Shown one piece after another: positions 6,795 through 11,951 of a stretch of DNA of 40,622 nucleotides. Position 1 is the first letter of the stretch; every line of letters begins with the position of its first letter. A program made the translations under genes and the position numbers. Under the pieces are notes generated by a model, which saw only the letters and a program-made list of their open reading frames with translations, was not told the origin of the DNA and did not search any database. This stretch comes from a virus (taxonomy: Duplodnaviria > Heunggongvirae > Uroviricota > Caudoviricetes). The stretch spans positions 1 to 40,622 of IMG/VR virus record IMGVR_UViG_2671180275_000009; one strand, given 5' to 3'.

Positions 6795-7088
6795 ATGAGC
6801 AAAGTACGCGTTATTTTTGAATTTGAGCATGTTTCGCATGACGAAAAATCGGCAGGCAATGACAGTGTTGAAGTGCATGAAAAGATTGGAGTAGATGTGA
6901 AAACAGAACGTGATACGGATAACAGGCCGACGTCACTCTGTGACGTTTATGCAAGCATTCTCCAGTATCACAGTCCTGTAATTATTCAGTTTCTCTCAGC
7001 GGAATTTCAGGCATCTGTACAGGCTTTTGGGGCGGATGCCATCATTAAACGCCACCGTGTGCATAAAGCATCAGGCACACTGCAATAA
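6795..7088 (+). CDS. Hypothetical early protein, paralogue 2 of a tandem pair
   Basis: Starts MSKVRVIFEFEHVSHDEKSAGND, paralogous to the preceding ORF; RBS before ATG 6795. Confidence 0.55.
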   Translation: MSKVRVIFEFEHVSHDEKSAGNDSVEVHEKIGVDVKTERDTDNRPTSLCDVYASILQYHSPVIIQFLSAEFQASVQAFGADAIIKRHRVHKASGTLQ

Positions 7089-7098
7089 GGAAAACAAA

Positions 7099-7629
7099 AT
7101 GGTTAAACGTGTTACAAAATTAAAGGCCGCAGCCGAGGCTGCACCGCAGACCCGCGAAGAAGTCAGCCGCGATATCCGAACCCTGGGCGATATTCAGCGA
7201 GAGGCGCTGCGCCTGGAAACGGCAATGAATGATGAAGTGGCAGAAATCACCGCCCGTTATACGCCGCAGATTGAAAACCTTAAAAAAGAAATCAAAGTGC
7301 TTTTTAAAGGGATTCATGACTGGTGTAAAACCAACCGCAATGAGCTGACGAACGGCGGCGAAACCAAAACTGCCAATCTGACCACCGGAACGGTGTCATG
7401 GCGGCTGGGAAATCCATCATGCAGCGTCAGTCGTGATGTGGAGGGTGTGATTGAAATGCTGCGTCGTATGGGGCTTGAGCGCTTCATCCGCACGAAAGAG
7501 GAAGTGAATAAGCAAGCTGTCCTGGCAGAGCCGGATGCGGTGAAAGGGATTGCTGGTATTAAGGTGAATAAAGGCGCTGAAAGTTTTCATGTCGAGCCTT
7601 TTGAACAGGACGCCGGACTGAATAAATAA
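7099..7629 (+). CDS. gam: Gam-like host-nuclease inhibitor (Ku-like DNA end-binding protein)
   Basis: Strong similarity to my recollection of Mu Gam (..LGDIQREALRLETAMNDEVAEIT..NRNELTNGGETKTANLTTGTVSWR..LERFIRTKEEVNKQA..); AAGGA RBS before ATG 7099. Confidence 0.85.
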   Translation: MVKRVTKLKAAAEAAPQTREEVSRDIRTLGDIQREALRLETAMNDEVAEITARYTPQIENLKKEIKVLFKGIHDWCKTNRNELTNGGETKTANLTTGTVSWRLGNPSCSVSRDVEGVIEMLRRMGLERFIRTKEEVNKQAVLAEPDAVKGIAGIKVNKGAESFHVEPFEQDAGLNK

Positions 7630-8295: not shown

Positions 8296-8829
8296 ATGAT
8301 TGATGCAAAAGTGCTTGAAGGGGTTAAAAGCTGGCTGCGTTTTTCTGGCCGTCTGACCAGTCGTTCTCTGGCAGAAAAAATGAATATGCCGCTATCCTCC
8401 ATGGTTTATTTTCTGCGTGATGCGGTCGATGCCGGTGTGCTGACGGACCGTAACGGTTTTTATGATATTCCGCGTCCCCGCCCGGTGCAGCCGGTTCGTC
8501 GCAAATGCAGCCAGGAGTCTGCGGCTGATGATGTTCAGTGGTGCAGCTTCAGAAAATCCCTGCCGTGGATTGAAGGGCATGATATTCCGTCGATGGCGTG
8601 GGAATTTGCTCAGGGCGTTCTGACCTGTGAAACCGTTTATGTGGTGGCTGAAGTTGATGAGCAGGCCATGAAAGAAGGCGTGCCCCAGTTTGTGATGGCG
8701 TATATCGACATTCGCCTGGGTGTCATTATCTGCGGTTTAAGCGGCTGGAATATCACCGCGCGTGTTCTGCGTTACCTGATTGTTGACCGGACGGCCGCGC
8801 CTGCCGGGATATCTGCGGAGGTGGCGTAA
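8296..8829 (+). CDS. Hypothetical protein, possible N-terminal winged-helix
   Basis: 177-aa ORF tightly packed after the previous gene. Confidence 0.5.
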   Translation: MIDAKVLEGVKSWLRFSGRLTSRSLAEKMNMPLSSMVYFLRDAVDAGVLTDRNGFYDIPRPRPVQPVRRKCSQESAADDVQWCSFRKSLPWIEGHDIPSMAWEFAQGVLTCETVYVVAEVDEQAMKEGVPQFVMAYIDIRLGVIICGLSGWNITARVLRYLIVDRTAAPAGISAEVA

Positions 8830-9344
8830 TGTTCTTTAAAACATCAAACCCTGCCGCGCTGGCTGCGTGGCAAAAATACCAGCAGGACTACAAGAAAGTT
8901 AAGGATGAGGCAAAACGTCTTGAGGCCGTGCTGAATGTTGCGTGCCGGTCGGTATTTGTATCCGGTATCAATGGTTTTTATTTTAAGGGACTGCGTTTTA
9001 CGGATGACAAATATCCTTTTCATCGAGACTTATGGCGAAAACCGACTGCGTCGAATGGCTGGAGCTGCACGCCGCGCACATCGTGTATTCCCAAAGCCCT
9101 GCGCTCTGCCTCTGACGAACTTAACAGTCTGTGGCGTGAATATTCGCCCGTCACGTATGCCAGAACCGATGCGCTGTTGTTCTGGCTGGGCATTGACTTC
9201 TCAGCAATATTGCATGGTCCCGTGAAGTGGTTCTGCGTTGACGATGTGATTTACCTTGAGTGTGGCGTAAAACCCGCAAAACAGAAAATGACCGAAATTC
9301 TGTCTGATGAGTTTTATGCTGCTGAAAAGCGAGTCAGGGGGTGA
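8829..9344 (+). CDS. Hypothetical early protein
   Basis: 171-aa ORF, start overlaps previous stop. Confidence 0.5.
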   Translation: MFFKTSNPAALAAWQKYQQDYKKVKDEAKRLEAVLNVACRSVFVSGINGFYFKGLRFTDDKYPFHRDLWRKPTASNGWSCTPRTSCIPKALRSASDELNSLWREYSPVTYARTDALLFWLGIDFSAILHGPVKWFCVDDVIYLECGVKPAKQKMTEILSDEFYAAEKRVRG

Positions 9345-9347
9345 TGC

Positions 9348-9899
9348 ATGATGAAATTACAACCCATGGGACGAAAAGGTCGGGCACCCGCTCATGTCCG
9401 CGCATGGACACCTGAAGAAGATGCGCTGCTGATTGCGCTTTATTCGTCCACCCCGGTTAAGGATATTGCTGTCAGAGTAAAAAGAAGTTACTGGGGAGTA
9501 TATAACCGGATTATTTTATTACGCGGTATTTACCCGCAGTTGCTCAAATGCAAACGTCCCAGATTTAAACCTGATGAAGATAAATTTATCCGAAAAAATG
9601 CCAGGACGATGACCGGTAAGCAAATAGGAGAATATCTGGGGCGAGACCGGGATTCTGTCCACAATCGGGCGCGATATATTGCCGTAAGCATGAAAAAATA
9701 CGGAGAATTGCTGCCTTTTACCCGCATACCTGACGATGATGTTCATCTTATTCGTAAATTACGGGATGCAGAGTCGCCACGACGTCTTACCTTCCGGGAA
9801 ATTGGCGAGAAATTTGAATTATCCGAGGGCACGGTGAGTTTTATTTATCACCGTCGCCGGACTGCCGAAGATGTTGTATTACGGGAGTTAATGCCATGA
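9348..9899 (+). CDS. Hypothetical DNA-binding protein with three HTH-like repeats
   Basis: Three internal segments of similar design (WTPEEDALLIALY..., FKPDEDKFIRKNA..., DDDVHLIRKLRD...LTFREIGEKFELSEGTVSFIYHRRR). Confidence 0.45.
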   Translation: MMKLQPMGRKGRAPAHVRAWTPEEDALLIALYSSTPVKDIAVRVKRSYWGVYNRIILLRGIYPQLLKCKRPRFKPDEDKFIRKNARTMTGKQIGEYLGRDRDSVHNRARYIAVSMKKYGELLPFTRIPDDDVHLIRKLRDAESPRRLTFREIGEKFELSEGTVSFIYHRRRTAEDVVLRELMP

Positions 9900-10228
9900 T
9901 AACGACATTATTTGTTGAATCAGATGAACCCCTTGTGTGTGCCGCCGGAATGCCGGTCTGTGGCGGAACGCTGACCGGTGTTTATTTCGGGGATTTGCGC
10001 GGTTATCCCTGGCATTCACTGGATGACGCATTTCCGCCTGATATGGAGGCTGTCGTGCTGATTGTTCAGTATGGTGACCAACAGGAACTGCGCATCGGCC
10101 ATATGGGGTATGAAGGCTTTTTTATTGATGAAGAAACCGGAGCCTGCCTTGAAGATGAGGACGGACAGGTGACGCACTGGTGCCATATTTCAGCTTTACC
10201 GGAATTACAGGAGACGCCCAATGGATGA
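9896..10228 (+). CDS. Hypothetical protein (DUF551-like C-terminus)
   Basis: 110-aa acidic ORF ending ...VTHWCHISALPEL. Confidence 0.45.
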   Translation: MITTLFVESDEPLVCAAGMPVCGGTLTGVYFGDLRGYPWHSLDDAFPPDMEAVVLIVQYGDQQELRIGHMGYEGFFIDEETGACLEDEDGQVTHWCHISALPELQETPNG

Positions 10229-10361
10229 TCAAATAGTTGAATGTCCCACCTGTGGAAATGAAGCCCCGGAGTATCTGAAAGAGTGCCCACATTGTGGTGA
10301 GGTAAAATGTAATCACTGCGATATGGGCGACGACACTGCATGTATGAATTGTGAGGATTAA
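10221..10361 (+). CDS. Small zinc-ribbon protein (46 aa), absent from the ORF track
   Basis: MDDQIVECPTCGNEAPEYLKECPHCGEVKCNHCDMGDDTACMNCED; four CxxC pairs; AGGAG RBS 7 nt upstream of ATG 10221. Confidence 0.45.
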   Translation: MDDQIVECPTCGNEAPEYLKECPHCGEVKCNHCDMGDDTACMNCED

Positions 10362-10365
10362 TAAT

Positions 10366-10653
10366 ATGGAAAAAGAAATCAAATTTGCGCCTAAAGATAT
10401 CGACGAAGAACTGGCTAAAATCGGCATGCTTGAGCGTATGCGGGACATTATCGAATATGCGATAAAAGAAAATCTTGCAGCCAGAGAAGCCCTTTTGATA
10501 ATGGAGCGGGAGATTAACCTGATTAAGGATGCTGTATCTCTGGATAATAAAATAGCCCGCGAGGAATACGTTCGCCGCAGGCTCGGTGTTGATGGTTCAG
10601 CAATTCTTACATCTGAACATTATGCAAAAATCTTTAATCTTTTTTCGCGGTAA
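10366..10653 (+). CDS. Hypothetical early protein
   Basis: ORF starting MEKEIKF with GAGGA RBS (track start 10351 is a GTG extension). Confidence 0.45.
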   Translation: MEKEIKFAPKDIDEELAKIGMLERMRDIIEYAIKENLAAREALLIMEREINLIKDAVSLDNKIAREEYVRRRLGVDGSAILTSEHYAKIFNLFSR

Positions 10654-10873
10654 TGCCCATGCAGGCCCGGAGATTGTCGAAATGCCAGTTTGTATTAATA
10701 TATGAGCCATCCTGGTGTCCCTCTGCGCTTTGGGGTGCGGCACTTTTTTGAGCAATATTGATAATATGTGTTGCCTCCTCACGGGAAATAACCCCCTTAT
10801 CGAACAGGGTTACCATAAGATTTCCAGCCATTGTGAATGCGGCAACATCAAGGGCATTTTTTATATCTGACAT
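10634..10873 (-). CDS. Hypothetical protein on the opposite strand within the early region
   Basis: 79-aa minus-strand ORF with AAGGA RBS 7 nt before its ATG; convergent with and overlapping the 3' end of the previous plus-strand ORF. Confidence 0.45.
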   Translation of the reverse strand: MSDIKNALDVAAFTMAGNLMVTLFDKGVISREEATHIINIAQKSAAPQSAEGHQDGSYINTNWHFDNLRACMGITAKKD

Positions 10874-10901: not shown

Positions 10902-10930
10902 GGCGGTGCGGTAACACCGCCCATTTTTTA
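10902..10930 (+). terminator. Rho-independent terminator candidate
   Basis: GGCGGTG / CACCGCC 7-bp stem with 6-nt loop followed by CATTTTTTA. Confidence 0.5.
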
Positions 10931-10943
10931 TGGAGCCACGATA

Positions 10944-11456
10944 ATGAATCGCGCTTCCCTGATTACCTTAATACATGTCGCAAAACGCGATCTACAGCTT
11001 GACCGGGAGACCTATATATCCGCGCTGCTGGCAGCCACCGGCAAAACCAGCTGCCGGGATATGTCACCGGATGAGTTGTCCCGCGTGCTGGATGTTTTCA
11101 AAAAACGCGGTTTTAAAGTGCGTCAGAACCCGGTTAACCGGGCCTTAAAACCGGGTACGGTGACCGCTAAAATTCGCGCCATCTGGAAGGTGATGCACCG
11201 GCAGGGCTTTATCTCTGATGGTGCGGAAACCGCCCTTAACCGCTGGGTGAAATCGCAGACGGCCGCGCAAAACGGCGGCGAAGGTGTGGCAAACTGGCAG
11301 TGGCTGGAGCAACACCCCGCCCTGGCCTCAGATGTGCTGGAGCGTCTCAAGCGATGGCACCGCCGCAAAATGCTGGCCGCGATGGGAATGCCCGAACGCA
11401 CGCTGATGGGGTATGACGCCGTTTGCAGGCAGTATGAAAAATCACTTCCCCGTTAA
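10944..11456 (+). CDS. gemA: GemA-like protein (Mu gp16 family)
   Basis: 170-aa ORF in the position of Mu gemA; conserved-looking basic, Trp-containing C-terminal region. Confidence 0.65.
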   Translation: MNRASLITLIHVAKRDLQLDRETYISALLAATGKTSCRDMSPDELSRVLDVFKKRGFKVRQNPVNRALKPGTVTAKIRAIWKVMHRQGFISDGAETALNRWVKSQTAAQNGGEGVANWQWLEQHPALASDVLERLKRWHRRKMLAAMGMPERTLMGYDAVCRQYEKSLPR

Positions 11457-11525: not shown

Positions 11526-11951
11526 ATGGCAGAAACTCAGATGAGCATGTTTGGTGGTGACAGTGAGCAACTGCACGCCCTTATCGACCGCCTTGATGAC
11601 ATCCCTGATGATGTTCTCAAAAAGAACTGGCCGCGGACCCTGTCAGAACTGGTTGAAGTCACCGGCGCAGAACTTCAGCGTCAGGGGATTGAGCCGGTAC
11701 TGGCCGGCAAACTGGCACGCAAGGTGGCTGCGGCTCAGGCAGCCTATATGGGCGGACGGGGTTATTACCTGCCGGTCGGGGAATCTCTCTTTGCCGAGCT
11801 GCGAAACAATGAGATATTTTCGCGCTGGGACCGGGGCGAGAAAATTGAATCCCTTCGCCGCCATTACCGGATGTCAGAAACCCAGATTTATACCGTCATA
11901 CGCGAACAGCGCCGTCTGCATCTGGCAAGAACGCAACCGCCACTTTTCTGA
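11526..11951 (+). CDS. Mor/C-family transcription activator
   Basis: 141-aa ORF between gemA and lys with C-terminal HTH-like segment (RRHYRMSETQIYTVIREQRR); cannot assign Mor versus C. Confidence 0.6.
   Translation: MAETQMSMFGGDSEQLHALIDRLDDIPDDVLKKNWPRTLSELVEVTGAELQRQGIEPVLAGKLARKVAAAQAAYMGGRGYYLPVGESLFAELRNNEIFSRWDRGEKIESLRRHYRMSETQIYTVIREQRRLHLARTQPPLF

What the first reader, a model, noticed from the sequence alone, without database searches (positions are those of the whole stretch)
10221..10361. Unlisted 46-codon zinc-ribbon ORF
Below the 60-aa cutoff of the ORF track is an ORF with AGGAG RBS encoding four evenly spaced CxxC pairs (CPTC, CPHC, CNHC, CMNC). It fills the gap between two annotated ORFs. 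Small zinc-ribbon proteins in phage early regions often act as inhibitors of host proteins.
Basis: seen in the sequence. Interest (0 to 1): 0.45.

Follow-up and report, generated by a model that had tools for sequence, protein, structure and literature searches.

The report
Short phage Mu gp13 zinc-finger gene
The 46-codon ORF is a real, strongly conserved gene: a shortened copy of phage Mu's uncharacterised early protein gp13, a very acidic eight-cysteine mini-protein whose function nobody has tested.

Summary
Window 10221-10361 (+) is an ATG ORF of 46 codons. It has an AGGAG Shine-Dalgarno 7 nt upstream and four CxxC pairs, and it overlaps the stop of the upstream gene by 8 nt.

It is not new. 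The window is a Mu-like prophage, and the ORF is the orthologue of phage Mu gp13 (E14). Residues 7-45 are 92% identical to Mu gp13, while flanking early proteins are only 27-64% identical. It matches PHROG 5584 ("unknown function").

Selection is strongly purifying: pN/pS is 0.16 in this frame, and all 47 related loci carry an intact ORF.

A profile search shows gp13 belongs to a wider family with no Pfam model. Its signature is CxxC-x9-16(-25)-CPxCG-x2-K-CxxC-DMGDD-x2-CxxC. The domain is always C-terminal and always acidic. It occurs in several phage types of beta- and gammaproteobacteria.

An AlphaFold model (pLDDT 83) resembles FYVE/PHD two-zinc fingers only weakly, and not significantly.

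Function is unknown. My best inference, at about 0.4, is a zinc-stabilised acidic module that binds a host or phage DNA-transaction protein.

PGAP misses the 46-aa form in the three RefSeq genomes I checked. This is an ordinary finding of modest interest.

The parts
10209..10213 (+). Shine-Dalgarno AGGAG, 7 nt upstream of the ATG
   Evidence: Read directly from the sequence.
10221..10361 (+). 46-codon ORF plus stop: the Mu gp13 (E14) orthologue with a shortened N-terminus. A second in-frame TAA follows at 10362-10364.
   Evidence: 92% identical to Mu gp13 residues 20-58. PHROG 5584 at E=2.8e-27. pN/pS 0.16.
10221..10228 (+). 8-nt overlap ATGGATGA: the start of this ORF overlaps the stop of upstream orf110, an arrangement typical of translational coupling
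   Evidence: Coupling itself is inferred.
10239..10355 (+). Conserved eight-Cys core (E7-E45). Homology to Mu begins exactly at 10239, so this is a mosaic junction.
   Evidence: blastn against Mu starts at query position 344, which is window 10239. Alignment A5. Family alignments A2 and A3.
10242..10253 (+). CxxC pair 1 (C8, C11), followed by invariant G12
   Evidence: Invariant in 62 family sequences.
10284..10295 (+). CxxC pair 2 (C22, C25), in the motif CPHCG. It sits at the turn of the predicted beta-hairpin 19-21/28-30.
10308..10319 (+). CxxC pair 3 (C30, C33), preceded by invariant K29
10320..10334 (+). DMGDD acidic loop (D34-D38), the most conserved non-cysteine motif and the candidate functional surface
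   Evidence: Conservation in the family: D 98%, M 79%, G 100%, D 83%, D 82%. The functional role is inferred.
10341..10352 (+). CxxC pair 4 (C41, C44), at the start of the predicted C-terminal helix 42-45
10353..10357 (+). GAGGA inside the last two codons (E45-D46). It serves as the likely Shine-Dalgarno for gp14, whose ATG is at 10366.
   Evidence: Sequence. The Mu record annotates an RBS at the equivalent place.
9348..10228 (+). Context: orf183 (HTH protein) and orf110. Relative to Mu, these two genes are inserted between gp12 and gp13.
10366..10653 (+). Context: gp14 homologue (50% identical to Mu gp14), immediately downstream

Best explanation
The ORF is a translated accessory early gene of a Mu-like prophage and the orthologue of phage Mu gp13 (E14). 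A recombination junction at codon 7 replaced the 19-residue N-terminus of Mu gp13 with six residues. What remains is essentially the 39-residue conserved core. The gene lies in the early gene block, which by analogy with Mu is transcribed as one operon. Its start overlaps the stop of orf110, and its last codons hold the ribosome-binding site of gp14. The product is a 5.1-kDa protein with a computed pI of about 4. Its eight invariant cysteines most probably hold two zinc ions in a compact fold: a beta-hairpin knuckle plus a C-terminal helix, possibly cross-braced as in FYVE/PHD fingers. This scaffold displays an invariant lysine and an almost invariant acidic loop, DMGDD. Because the surface is uniformly acidic, I infer that the protein does not bind nucleic acid. 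I infer instead that it binds a protein, most likely a basic, nucleic-acid-handling surface of a host or phage DNA-transaction or defence protein, and modulates or blocks it. Shown: gene identity, conservation, selection, the family signature and acidity. Inferred: zinc binding (about 0.85), topology (about 0.5) and the protein-binding modulator role (about 0.4). The confidence value given is for the mechanism. Identity as a real gp13 orthologue is at least 0.95.
For: Identity. The core is 92% identical to Mu gp13 over residues 7-45 and matches PHROG 5584 at E=2.8e-27. The surrounding genes are those of Mu: Gam, gp11, gp12, gp14, GemA and Mor.

A real gene. AGGAG is at the optimal spacing. All 47 related loci carry an intact ORF, with 25 distinct nucleotide sequences. 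pN/pS is 0.16 in this frame and above 1.4 in four of the five other frames. Variable columns number 14/14/35 by codon position. The core is far better conserved than flanking proteins, which are 27-64% identical to Mu.

The family. A profile search of 1.84 billion representatives gave 219 hits at E<=1e-3. About 83 of these are small proteins with the full eight-Cys pattern, and the 4- and 7-residue spacings are almost invariant. C8, C11, G12, C22, C25, K29, C30, C33, G36, C41 and C44 are invariant.

Acidity. The core net charge averages -6.6 and is never zero or positive in 62 sequences. The window protein has 12 D/E against 2 K/R.

A host-directed, portable function. The same domain occurs outside Mu-like phages. 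It lies in the replication module of Klebsiella phage BU9, next to helicase, exonuclease, SSB and DNA polymerase genes. It also occurs in phiKO2-like and Hafnia yong2-like contexts, and directly after Gam in a distant Mu-like contig, L059. Neighbours of distant members are mostly DNA-metabolism genes.

A modular domain. It is found fused to the C-terminus of several unrelated N-terminal domains.
Against: There is no experimental or literature evidence for any function. No neighbour is conserved across phage types, so guilt by association is weak. Structural matches are not significant, and I could not inspect the model coordinates, so the zinc-site topology is unverified. Zinc binding is inferred only from the cysteine pattern; iron or a redox role is not excluded. 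The gene is dispensable in evolutionary terms. O157-type Mu-like prophages that share orf110 replace gp13 and gp14 with another cassette. Only 49 of 5426 complete E. coli genomes carry any gp13-like gene.
Confidence: 0.4

Rival explanations
1. It is a partner subunit or adaptor for another phage protein, not a host-directed factor. The eight-Cys module would dock onto a phage-encoded protein such as gp14 or the product of the upstream gene and work only in that complex.
For: The domain occurs fused to the C-terminus of diverse N-terminal domains. These include a ProQ_C-like domain in P0029 and P0093 and a 190-aa domain in L018-L021, which is PHROG 6418. In Mu-like phages it is tightly packed with its neighbours, with overlapping start and stop codons and a shared ribosome-binding site. 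In O157-type prophages gp13 and gp14 are replaced together.
Against: gp14 does not accompany the domain outside Mu-like phages. No neighbour cluster is shared across phage types. SfMu and related phages have a different gene directly after gp13.
Confidence: 0.2
2. It is a small zinc-finger regulator that binds DNA or RNA, for example a transcription or translation regulator of the early-to-middle switch.
For: Many phage Cys4 proteins are regulators. The gene lies upstream of gemA and mor. There are weak sub-threshold similarities to zinc ribbons of RNA-polymerase subunits and ribosomal proteins.
Against: The protein has 12 acidic and 2 basic residues, and the family core is never neutral or basic. 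Nucleic-acid-binding zinc ribbons are typically basic. No DNA-binding family matched at threshold.
Confidence: 0.08
3. It is a redox or metal-handling protein: a rubredoxin-like Fe(Cys)4 electron carrier, a thiol redox switch, or a metal sink.
For: Cysteine makes up 17% of the residues. The best PDB sequence matches, though not significant, are the rubredoxin-like domains of nigerythrin and rubrerythrin at E about 0.04.
Against: These matches cover only the first two CxxC pairs and are above any significance threshold. There are no redox partners in the neighbourhood. The conserved K29 and DMGDD motif is unrelated to rubredoxin.
Confidence: 0.07
4. It is a chance ORF or a decaying remnant that makes no functional product. 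This would explain why PGAP does not call it.
For: PGAP leaves it unannotated in three RefSeq genomes. Its N-terminus is truncated relative to Mu gp13.
Against: pN/pS is 0.16 and the ORF is intact in all 47 loci. The core is 92% identical to Mu while its neighbours are 27-64% identical. It has a strong Shine-Dalgarno. The family signature is conserved across 219 representative clusters.
Confidence: 0.02

Closest known systems
Bacteriophage Mu gp13 (E14; AAF01090.1), D108 gp13 and SfMu_13; PHROG 5584
   Same: Orthologous. Residues 7-45 are 92% identical to Mu gp13 residues 20-58, and all eight cysteines, K29 and DMGDD are the same. The position in the early region, directly upstream of gp14, is also the same.
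   Different: It is 46 aa, not 60. The Mu N-terminus MENNKTSYSWLGKFTTVKQ is replaced by MDDQIV at a mosaic junction. Two extra genes, orf183 and orf110, separate it from gp12. No function is known for gp13 itself.
FYVE, PHD and RING cross-braced two-zinc fingers (eukaryotic)
Generic zinc ribbons (Pfam Zn_Ribbon_1 PF13240, DZR PF12773, Zn_ribbon_LapB PF18073)
   Same: The first two pairs, CxxC-x10-CxxC, look like a zinc ribbon or rubredoxin knuckle pair.
   Different: All scores are below the Pfam gathering cut-offs (18.2 against 25; 16.0 against 27.3). The second half, KCxxCDMGDDxxCxxC, is not covered by any of these models.
Lar restriction-alleviation protein family (PF14354 / TIGR03655)
   Same: A small prophage-encoded Cys-rich protein from an early or accessory region that acts on a host enzyme.
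   Different: Only trace similarity: PF14354 at E=0.28 and 11.9 bits against a cut-off of 28.6, and TIGR03655 at 14.9 bits against 39.6 for Mu gp13. It is not a member.
Archaeal four-CxxC micro-proteins (DUF1610, e.g. HVO_2753, PDB 6ydh)
   Same: About 60 aa with four CxxC pairs. There is a full-length but non-significant alignment.
   Different: E is about 0.9 by sequence and 2.1 by fold. The spacing differs, there is no DMGDD motif, and the taxonomic domain is different.

Membership tests
Phage Mu gp13 / E14 family (PHROG 5584) | Significant sequence match to the family profile and to Mu gp13 | tested here: met
   phrog_5584 at E=2.8e-27, covering profile positions 20-58 of 60. blastp against Mu gp13 gives 92% identity at E=3e-26.
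Phage Mu gp13 / E14 family (PHROG 5584) | Eight cysteines with the spacing CxxC-x10-CxxC-x4-CxxC-x7-CxxC, plus K29 and DMGDD | tested here: met
   All are present in the window protein and invariant or nearly invariant in the family.
Phage Mu gp13 / E14 family (PHROG 5584) | Position in the early region of a Mu-like phage, between gam/gp11/gp12 and gp14/gemA/mor | tested here: met
   Pfam finds Gp11_C, GemA and Mor in the neighbours. The Gam, gp12 and gp14 homologues are 50-54% identical to Mu. Two extra genes lie between gp12 and this ORF.
Phage Mu gp13 / E14 family (PHROG 5584) | The N-terminal extension of about 19 residues seen in Mu, D108 and SfMu gp13 | tested here: not met
   It is replaced by six residues, MDDQIV. 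Homology starts at codon 7. The extension varies across the family, so it is not a core feature.
Zinc ribbon (Pfam PF13240 Zn_Ribbon_1 / PF12773 DZR) | Score at or above the Pfam gathering threshold | tested here: not met
   18.2 bits against 25 for PF13240, and 16.0 against 27.3 for PF12773. Only residues 7-26 are matched.
FYVE / PHD / RING cross-brace zinc fingers | Significant structural similarity to solved domains | tested here: inconclusive
FYVE / PHD / RING cross-brace zinc fingers | Family signature motifs (FYVE: WxxD, R(R/K)HHCR, RVC) | tested here: not met
   They are absent from the 46-aa sequence. No FYVE, PHD or RING Pfam model appears among the hits at E<=1. The motif definitions come from my own knowledge.
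Lar restriction-alleviation family (PF14354 / TIGR03655) | Profile match above the curated cut-off | tested here: not met
   PF14354 at 11.9 bits against 28.6. TIGR03655 at 14.9 bits against 39.6 for Mu gp13, with no hit for the window protein.
Known anti-phage defence system components (PADLOC) | Match to any PADLOC model | tested here: not met
   No hit at E<=0.1.
Zinc-binding protein (any) | Stoichiometric metal bound by the cysteines | not testable with these tools
   Inferred only from eight invariant cysteines in CxxC pairs and from the predicted knuckle and helix geometry.

The most novel reading that the evidence does not exclude
The gp13 core may define an uncurated family of phage 'acidic finger' proteins. 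In this reading a two-zinc scaffold presents the invariant K...DMGDD loop to plug or mimic nucleic acid at the basic active site or DNA-binding cleft of a host enzyme, such as a repair or defence nuclease, a polymerase or a topoisomerase. That would make it a portable anti-host or anti-defence module exchanged among Mu-like, N15-like and other phages of beta- and gammaproteobacteria. It would also assign a function to a Mu early gene that has had none since it was first sequenced.
Probability: 0.25. Interest if true: 0.6.

Novelty: new member of a known kind. Interest (0 to 1): 0.3.

Why it matters
It matters in three modest ways.

First, annotation. The short gp13 variant is a real and strongly constrained gene. 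NCBI's pipeline skipped it in the three RefSeq genomes I checked, although the exact protein was seen on 685 public contigs.

Second, family definition. gp13 is not a Mu oddity. It is the founding member of a recognisable eight-cysteine acidic domain that has no Pfam or NCBIfam model and about 200 representative clusters, spread across several phage types.

Third, a testable lead for Mu biology. This core is the best-conserved stretch among the seven early-region proteins compared, at 92% identity against 27-64% for the others. That is unusual for a gene in a region treated as semi-essential, and it argues that the protein does something important in natural hosts.

None of this is surprising to a phage specialist, and the function remains unknown.

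Tried and rejected
1. The first AF2 run used only an 11-sequence alignment and gave pLDDT 55.7, which is unusable. I repeated it with 47 sequences.

3. A sequence-profile search of the PDB returned only sub-threshold rubredoxin-like and ribosomal zinc-ribbon matches.

4. Pfam, NCBIfam and PADLOC hold no family for the domain.

5. I clustered neighbours over 69 viral loci to look for a conserved partner. None is shared beyond the Mu-like group.

6. tblastn suggested that the ProQ_C-like domain of P0029 extends over gp12/gp13 in Yersinia phages. I rejected this. The upstream frame contains stops, and the extension is a low-identity alignment artefact.

7. Literature searches for Mu gp13, E14, Mup13, DMGDD and anti-defence found no functional work.

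8. I looked for family members lacking one CxxC pair to infer which pairs share a zinc. All full-length members keep all four pairs, so this gave no information.

9. Rfam found no RNA family anywhere in the window. No promoter-like or terminator-like site lies between orf110 and gp14.

Full report
**1. The observation**

Window 10221-10361 (+) is an ATG-initiated ORF of 46 codons encoding MDDQIVECPTCGNEAPEYLKECPHCGEVKCNHCDMGDDTACMNCED.
- AGGAG lies at 10209-10213, 7 nt before the ATG.
- The ATG overlaps the stop of the upstream 110-codon ORF by 8 nt (ATGGATGA).
- The ORF ends in a double stop, TAATAA.
- Its last two codons (GAGGAT) contain a GAGGA that sits 8 nt before the ATG of the next gene at 10366.
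The gaps between pairs are 10, 4 and 7 residues.

This is not chance. Among 786 six-frame stop-to-stop segments of at least 30 aa in the window, this is the only one with more than two CxxC in any 45 residues.

**2. What the region is**

Pfam identifies the neighbours as the phage Mu Gp11 C-terminal domain (8296-8829), GemA (10944-11456) and Mor (11526-11951). Other neighbours are homologous to Mu proteins:

| Window ORF | Mu homologue | Identity |
|---|---|---|
| 7027-7629 | Gam | 54% |
| 8829-9344 | gp12 | 54% |
| 10366-10653 | gp14 | 50% |

The window is therefore a Mu-like prophage, and the ORF lies in its early accessory region. That region is called 'semi-essential' in the Mu literature, and its gene functions are described as largely unknown (PMC3820752). 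Closely related DNA occurs in E. coli chromosomes and as a Mu-like phage inserted in Stx-converting phages.

**3. What the ORF is**

It is the orthologue of Mu gene 13, formerly E14 (protein AAF01090.1, 60 aa, annotated 'hypothetical protein').
- Residues 7-45 are 92% identical to Mu gp13 residues 20-58.
- It matches PHROG 5584, annotated 'unknown function', at E=2.8e-27.
- Nucleotide homology to Mu begins exactly at 10239, the first base of codon 7.
- Upstream of that point the window carries two genes that Mu lacks. They are orf183, an HTH protein that RefSeq names 'AsnC family' or 'SANT/Myb-like', and orf110.
- The ORF is thus a gp13 whose variable N-terminal 19 residues were swapped for six residues at a mosaic junction. 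What remains is essentially the conserved core.

**4. Whether it is a real gene**

I collected 69 viral loci and extracted the ORF from each.
- All 47 loci of the Mu-like group, counting the window, carry an intact ORF, with 25 distinct nucleotide sequences for the core.
- In the ORF frame pS is 0.65 and pN is 0.105, so pN/pS is 0.16.
- Four of the five other frames give ratios above 1.4.
- Variable columns fall 14/14/35 on codon positions 1/2/3.
- The core is by far the best conserved of the seven early-region proteins compared: 92% identity to Mu against 27-64% for Gam, gp11, gp12, gp14, GemA and Mor.

Mu-like prophages of O157:H7 and other STEC share orf110 up to about 10213-10235. They then carry a different cassette in place of gp13 and gp14. 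This is cassette exchange, not decay. Overall, 49 of 5426 complete E. coli genomes have a gp13-like gene.

**5. Annotation status**

PGAP leaves the 46-codon form unannotated in three RefSeq genomes I checked: CP053234, CP027586 and CP136993. It does annotate the 60-codon Mu-type form in E. coli W. The exact 46-aa protein nevertheless exists in GenBank as 'hypothetical protein' (for example BDQ75975.1 and ERD39583.1) and was seen on 685 contigs. The gene is therefore missed by some pipelines but is not unknown.

**6. A wider family**

The word-indexed search found only 11 clusters. An exhaustive profile search of 1.84 billion representative proteins found 219 hits at E<=1e-3.
- About 83 are small proteins (45-190 aa) with the full pattern: CxxC-(9-16, mostly 10 or 11)-CxxC-4-CxxC-7-CxxC.
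- A long-loop subgroup, with about 22-25 residues between pairs 1 and 2, appears in viral and bacterial contigs.
- Invariant positions are the eight Cys, G12, K29 and G36. D34, M35, D37, D38 and P23 are 79-98% conserved.
- The signature is CPxCG-x2-K-CxxC-DMGDD-(V/T)-x-CxxC-(E/D).
- The domain is at or near the C-terminus in nearly all members, usually followed by a short acidic tail.
- Its net charge is always negative, with a mean of -6.6.
- No Pfam, NCBIfam or PADLOC model covers it. Pfam zinc-ribbon models touch only residues 7-26, below their thresholds.

**7. Distribution and context**

Besides Mu, D108, SfMu and Yersinia Mu-like phages, the domain occurs in several other settings:
- Klebsiella phage Kpn BU9, in a 50-aa protein lying near helicase and beside exonuclease, Gp2.5-like SSB and DNA-polymerase genes.
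- phiKO2-like (N15-type) contexts and Hafnia yong2-like contexts.
- Distant Mu-like contigs. In L059 it directly follows Gam.
- Prophage regions of beta- and gammaproteobacteria, including Thauera, Methylovulum, Rubrivivax, Hydrogenophaga, Paucibacter and Buttiauxella.

Neighbours of the distant members are mostly DNA-metabolism genes: Gam, DNA polymerase, helicase, SSB, exonucleases, RdgC, RuvC, ThyX and dNMP phosphatase. No single partner is conserved.

The domain is also fused to unrelated N-terminal domains:
- A borderline ProQ_C-like domain in P0029 and P0093.
- A 190-aa domain of unknown function in L018-L021, which corresponds to PHROG 6418.

**8. Structure**

- With 11 sequences AF2 gave pLDDT 55.7. 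With 47 sequences it gave 82.7.
- The better model has strands at 19-21 and 28-30 flanking the CPHCG knuckle, and a short helix at 42-45 carrying the last CxxC.
- Foldseek's top PDB hit was also a FYVE domain (2yw8, E=0.32), followed by PHD, GATA and RING-like fingers.
- BFVD gave nothing significant, and the PDB sequence search gave nothing significant.

I take this as a hint, not a demonstration, of a two-zinc treble-clef or cross-braced fold. I could not examine the coordinates, so which cysteine pairs share a metal is unresolved.

**9. Mechanism**

Shown:
- The gene is coding and under strong constraint.
- Its start and stop signals overlap those of its neighbours.
- The domain has eight invariant cysteines and is uniformly acidic.
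- The domain is portable between phage types.

Inferred:
- It binds two zinc ions (about 0.85).
- Because it is so acidic (12 D/E against 2 K/R), it is unlikely to bind nucleic acid.
- It more probably binds a protein, presenting the invariant K29 and DMGDD surface. The likeliest target is a basic, DNA-handling host or phage protein (about 0.4).

Rivals:
- An obligate partner of another phage protein such as gp14 (0.2).
- A nucleic-acid-binding regulator (0.08).
- A redox or metal role (0.07).
- A non-functional ORF (0.02).

No paper in the searchable library reports a function for Mu gp13. From my own knowledge, Mu gene 13/E14 has been listed as an uncharacterised early ORF since the left end of Mu was first sequenced.

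**10. Verdict**

It is a shortened member of a known but uncharacterised phage family, not a new kind of element. The useful additions are the family definition, the annotation gap and the evidence of unusually strong constraint. Interest is modest at 0.3. It would rise to about 0.6 if the domain proved to be a portable inhibitor of a host DNA-transaction or defence enzyme.

Noticed in passing
window 9348-10228: Relative to Mu, two genes are inserted between gp12 and gp13. One is orf183, an HTH protein with sigma-70 region 4 and Myb-like hits below threshold, which RefSeq names 'AsnC family' or 'SANT/Myb-like' and which matches PHROG 323 ('transcriptional regulator'). The other is orf110 (PHROG 6925, unknown function). 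orf110 is shared with O157:H7-type Mu-like prophages, 130 of the 144 matching genomes, which then diverge right at the start of the zinc-finger ORF.
   Followed up: partly
window 10634-10873 (- strand): A 79-aa reverse-strand ORF lies between gp14 and gemA and overlaps the gp14 3' end by 20 nt. PGAP annotates it as hypothetical in relatives, and it matches PHROG 32893 (unknown). It is an oppositely oriented moron-like gene inside the early region. Terminator-like hairpins lie nearby at 10723-10740 and 10902-10921 (+).
   Followed up: partly
L018-L021 (for example L019:5368-6126): In some Mu-like prophages the gp13 frame stays open upstream for about 190 codons. This gives a 252-aa fusion of an unknown domain (PHROG 6418 / 2510) with the gp13 zinc core, and gp12 is missing there. 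A GTG at the Mu start position could still give a stand-alone gp13.
   Followed up: partly
P0029, P0051, P0083, P0093 (metagenomic proteins of 154-167 aa): These proteins fuse an N-terminal domain with the gp13-type core. For P0029 and P0093 that domain scores just below the Pfam cut-off for Phage_ProQ_C_like (PF24203; 26.6 and 19.7 bits against 27); P0051 and P0083 have no Pfam hit and were grouped by sequence resemblance only. tblastn found the N-terminal domain alone in a human-gut phage contig (MT835597.1).
   Followed up: partly
public protein collection, cluster of P0188: The 90%-identity cluster that holds the exact 46-aa protein has an orf110 protein as its representative and mostly orf110 members. 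This is why the first homology search did not return the query itself. It is either a clustering artefact or a sign that fused orf110-gp13 gene calls exist.
   Followed up: no
L094 (NZ_CP027586.1), about 550 nt downstream of the ORF: In E. coli 2012EL-2448 an IS1A element sits just after the reverse-strand 79-aa gene, where gemA is expected. That copy of the prophage early region appears to be disrupted.
   Followed up: no
LC727895.1 and LC727881.1 (hits H1, H2): The same Mu-like phage is annotated as an insertion inside Stx1a- and Stx2c-converting prophages, which is a phage within a phage. In the Stx2c record the match covers only window 9896-10213, so the gp13 region was not matched there.
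   Followed up: no
whole window: No Rfam family reaches its gathering score anywhere in the 40.6-kb window.
   Followed up: yes
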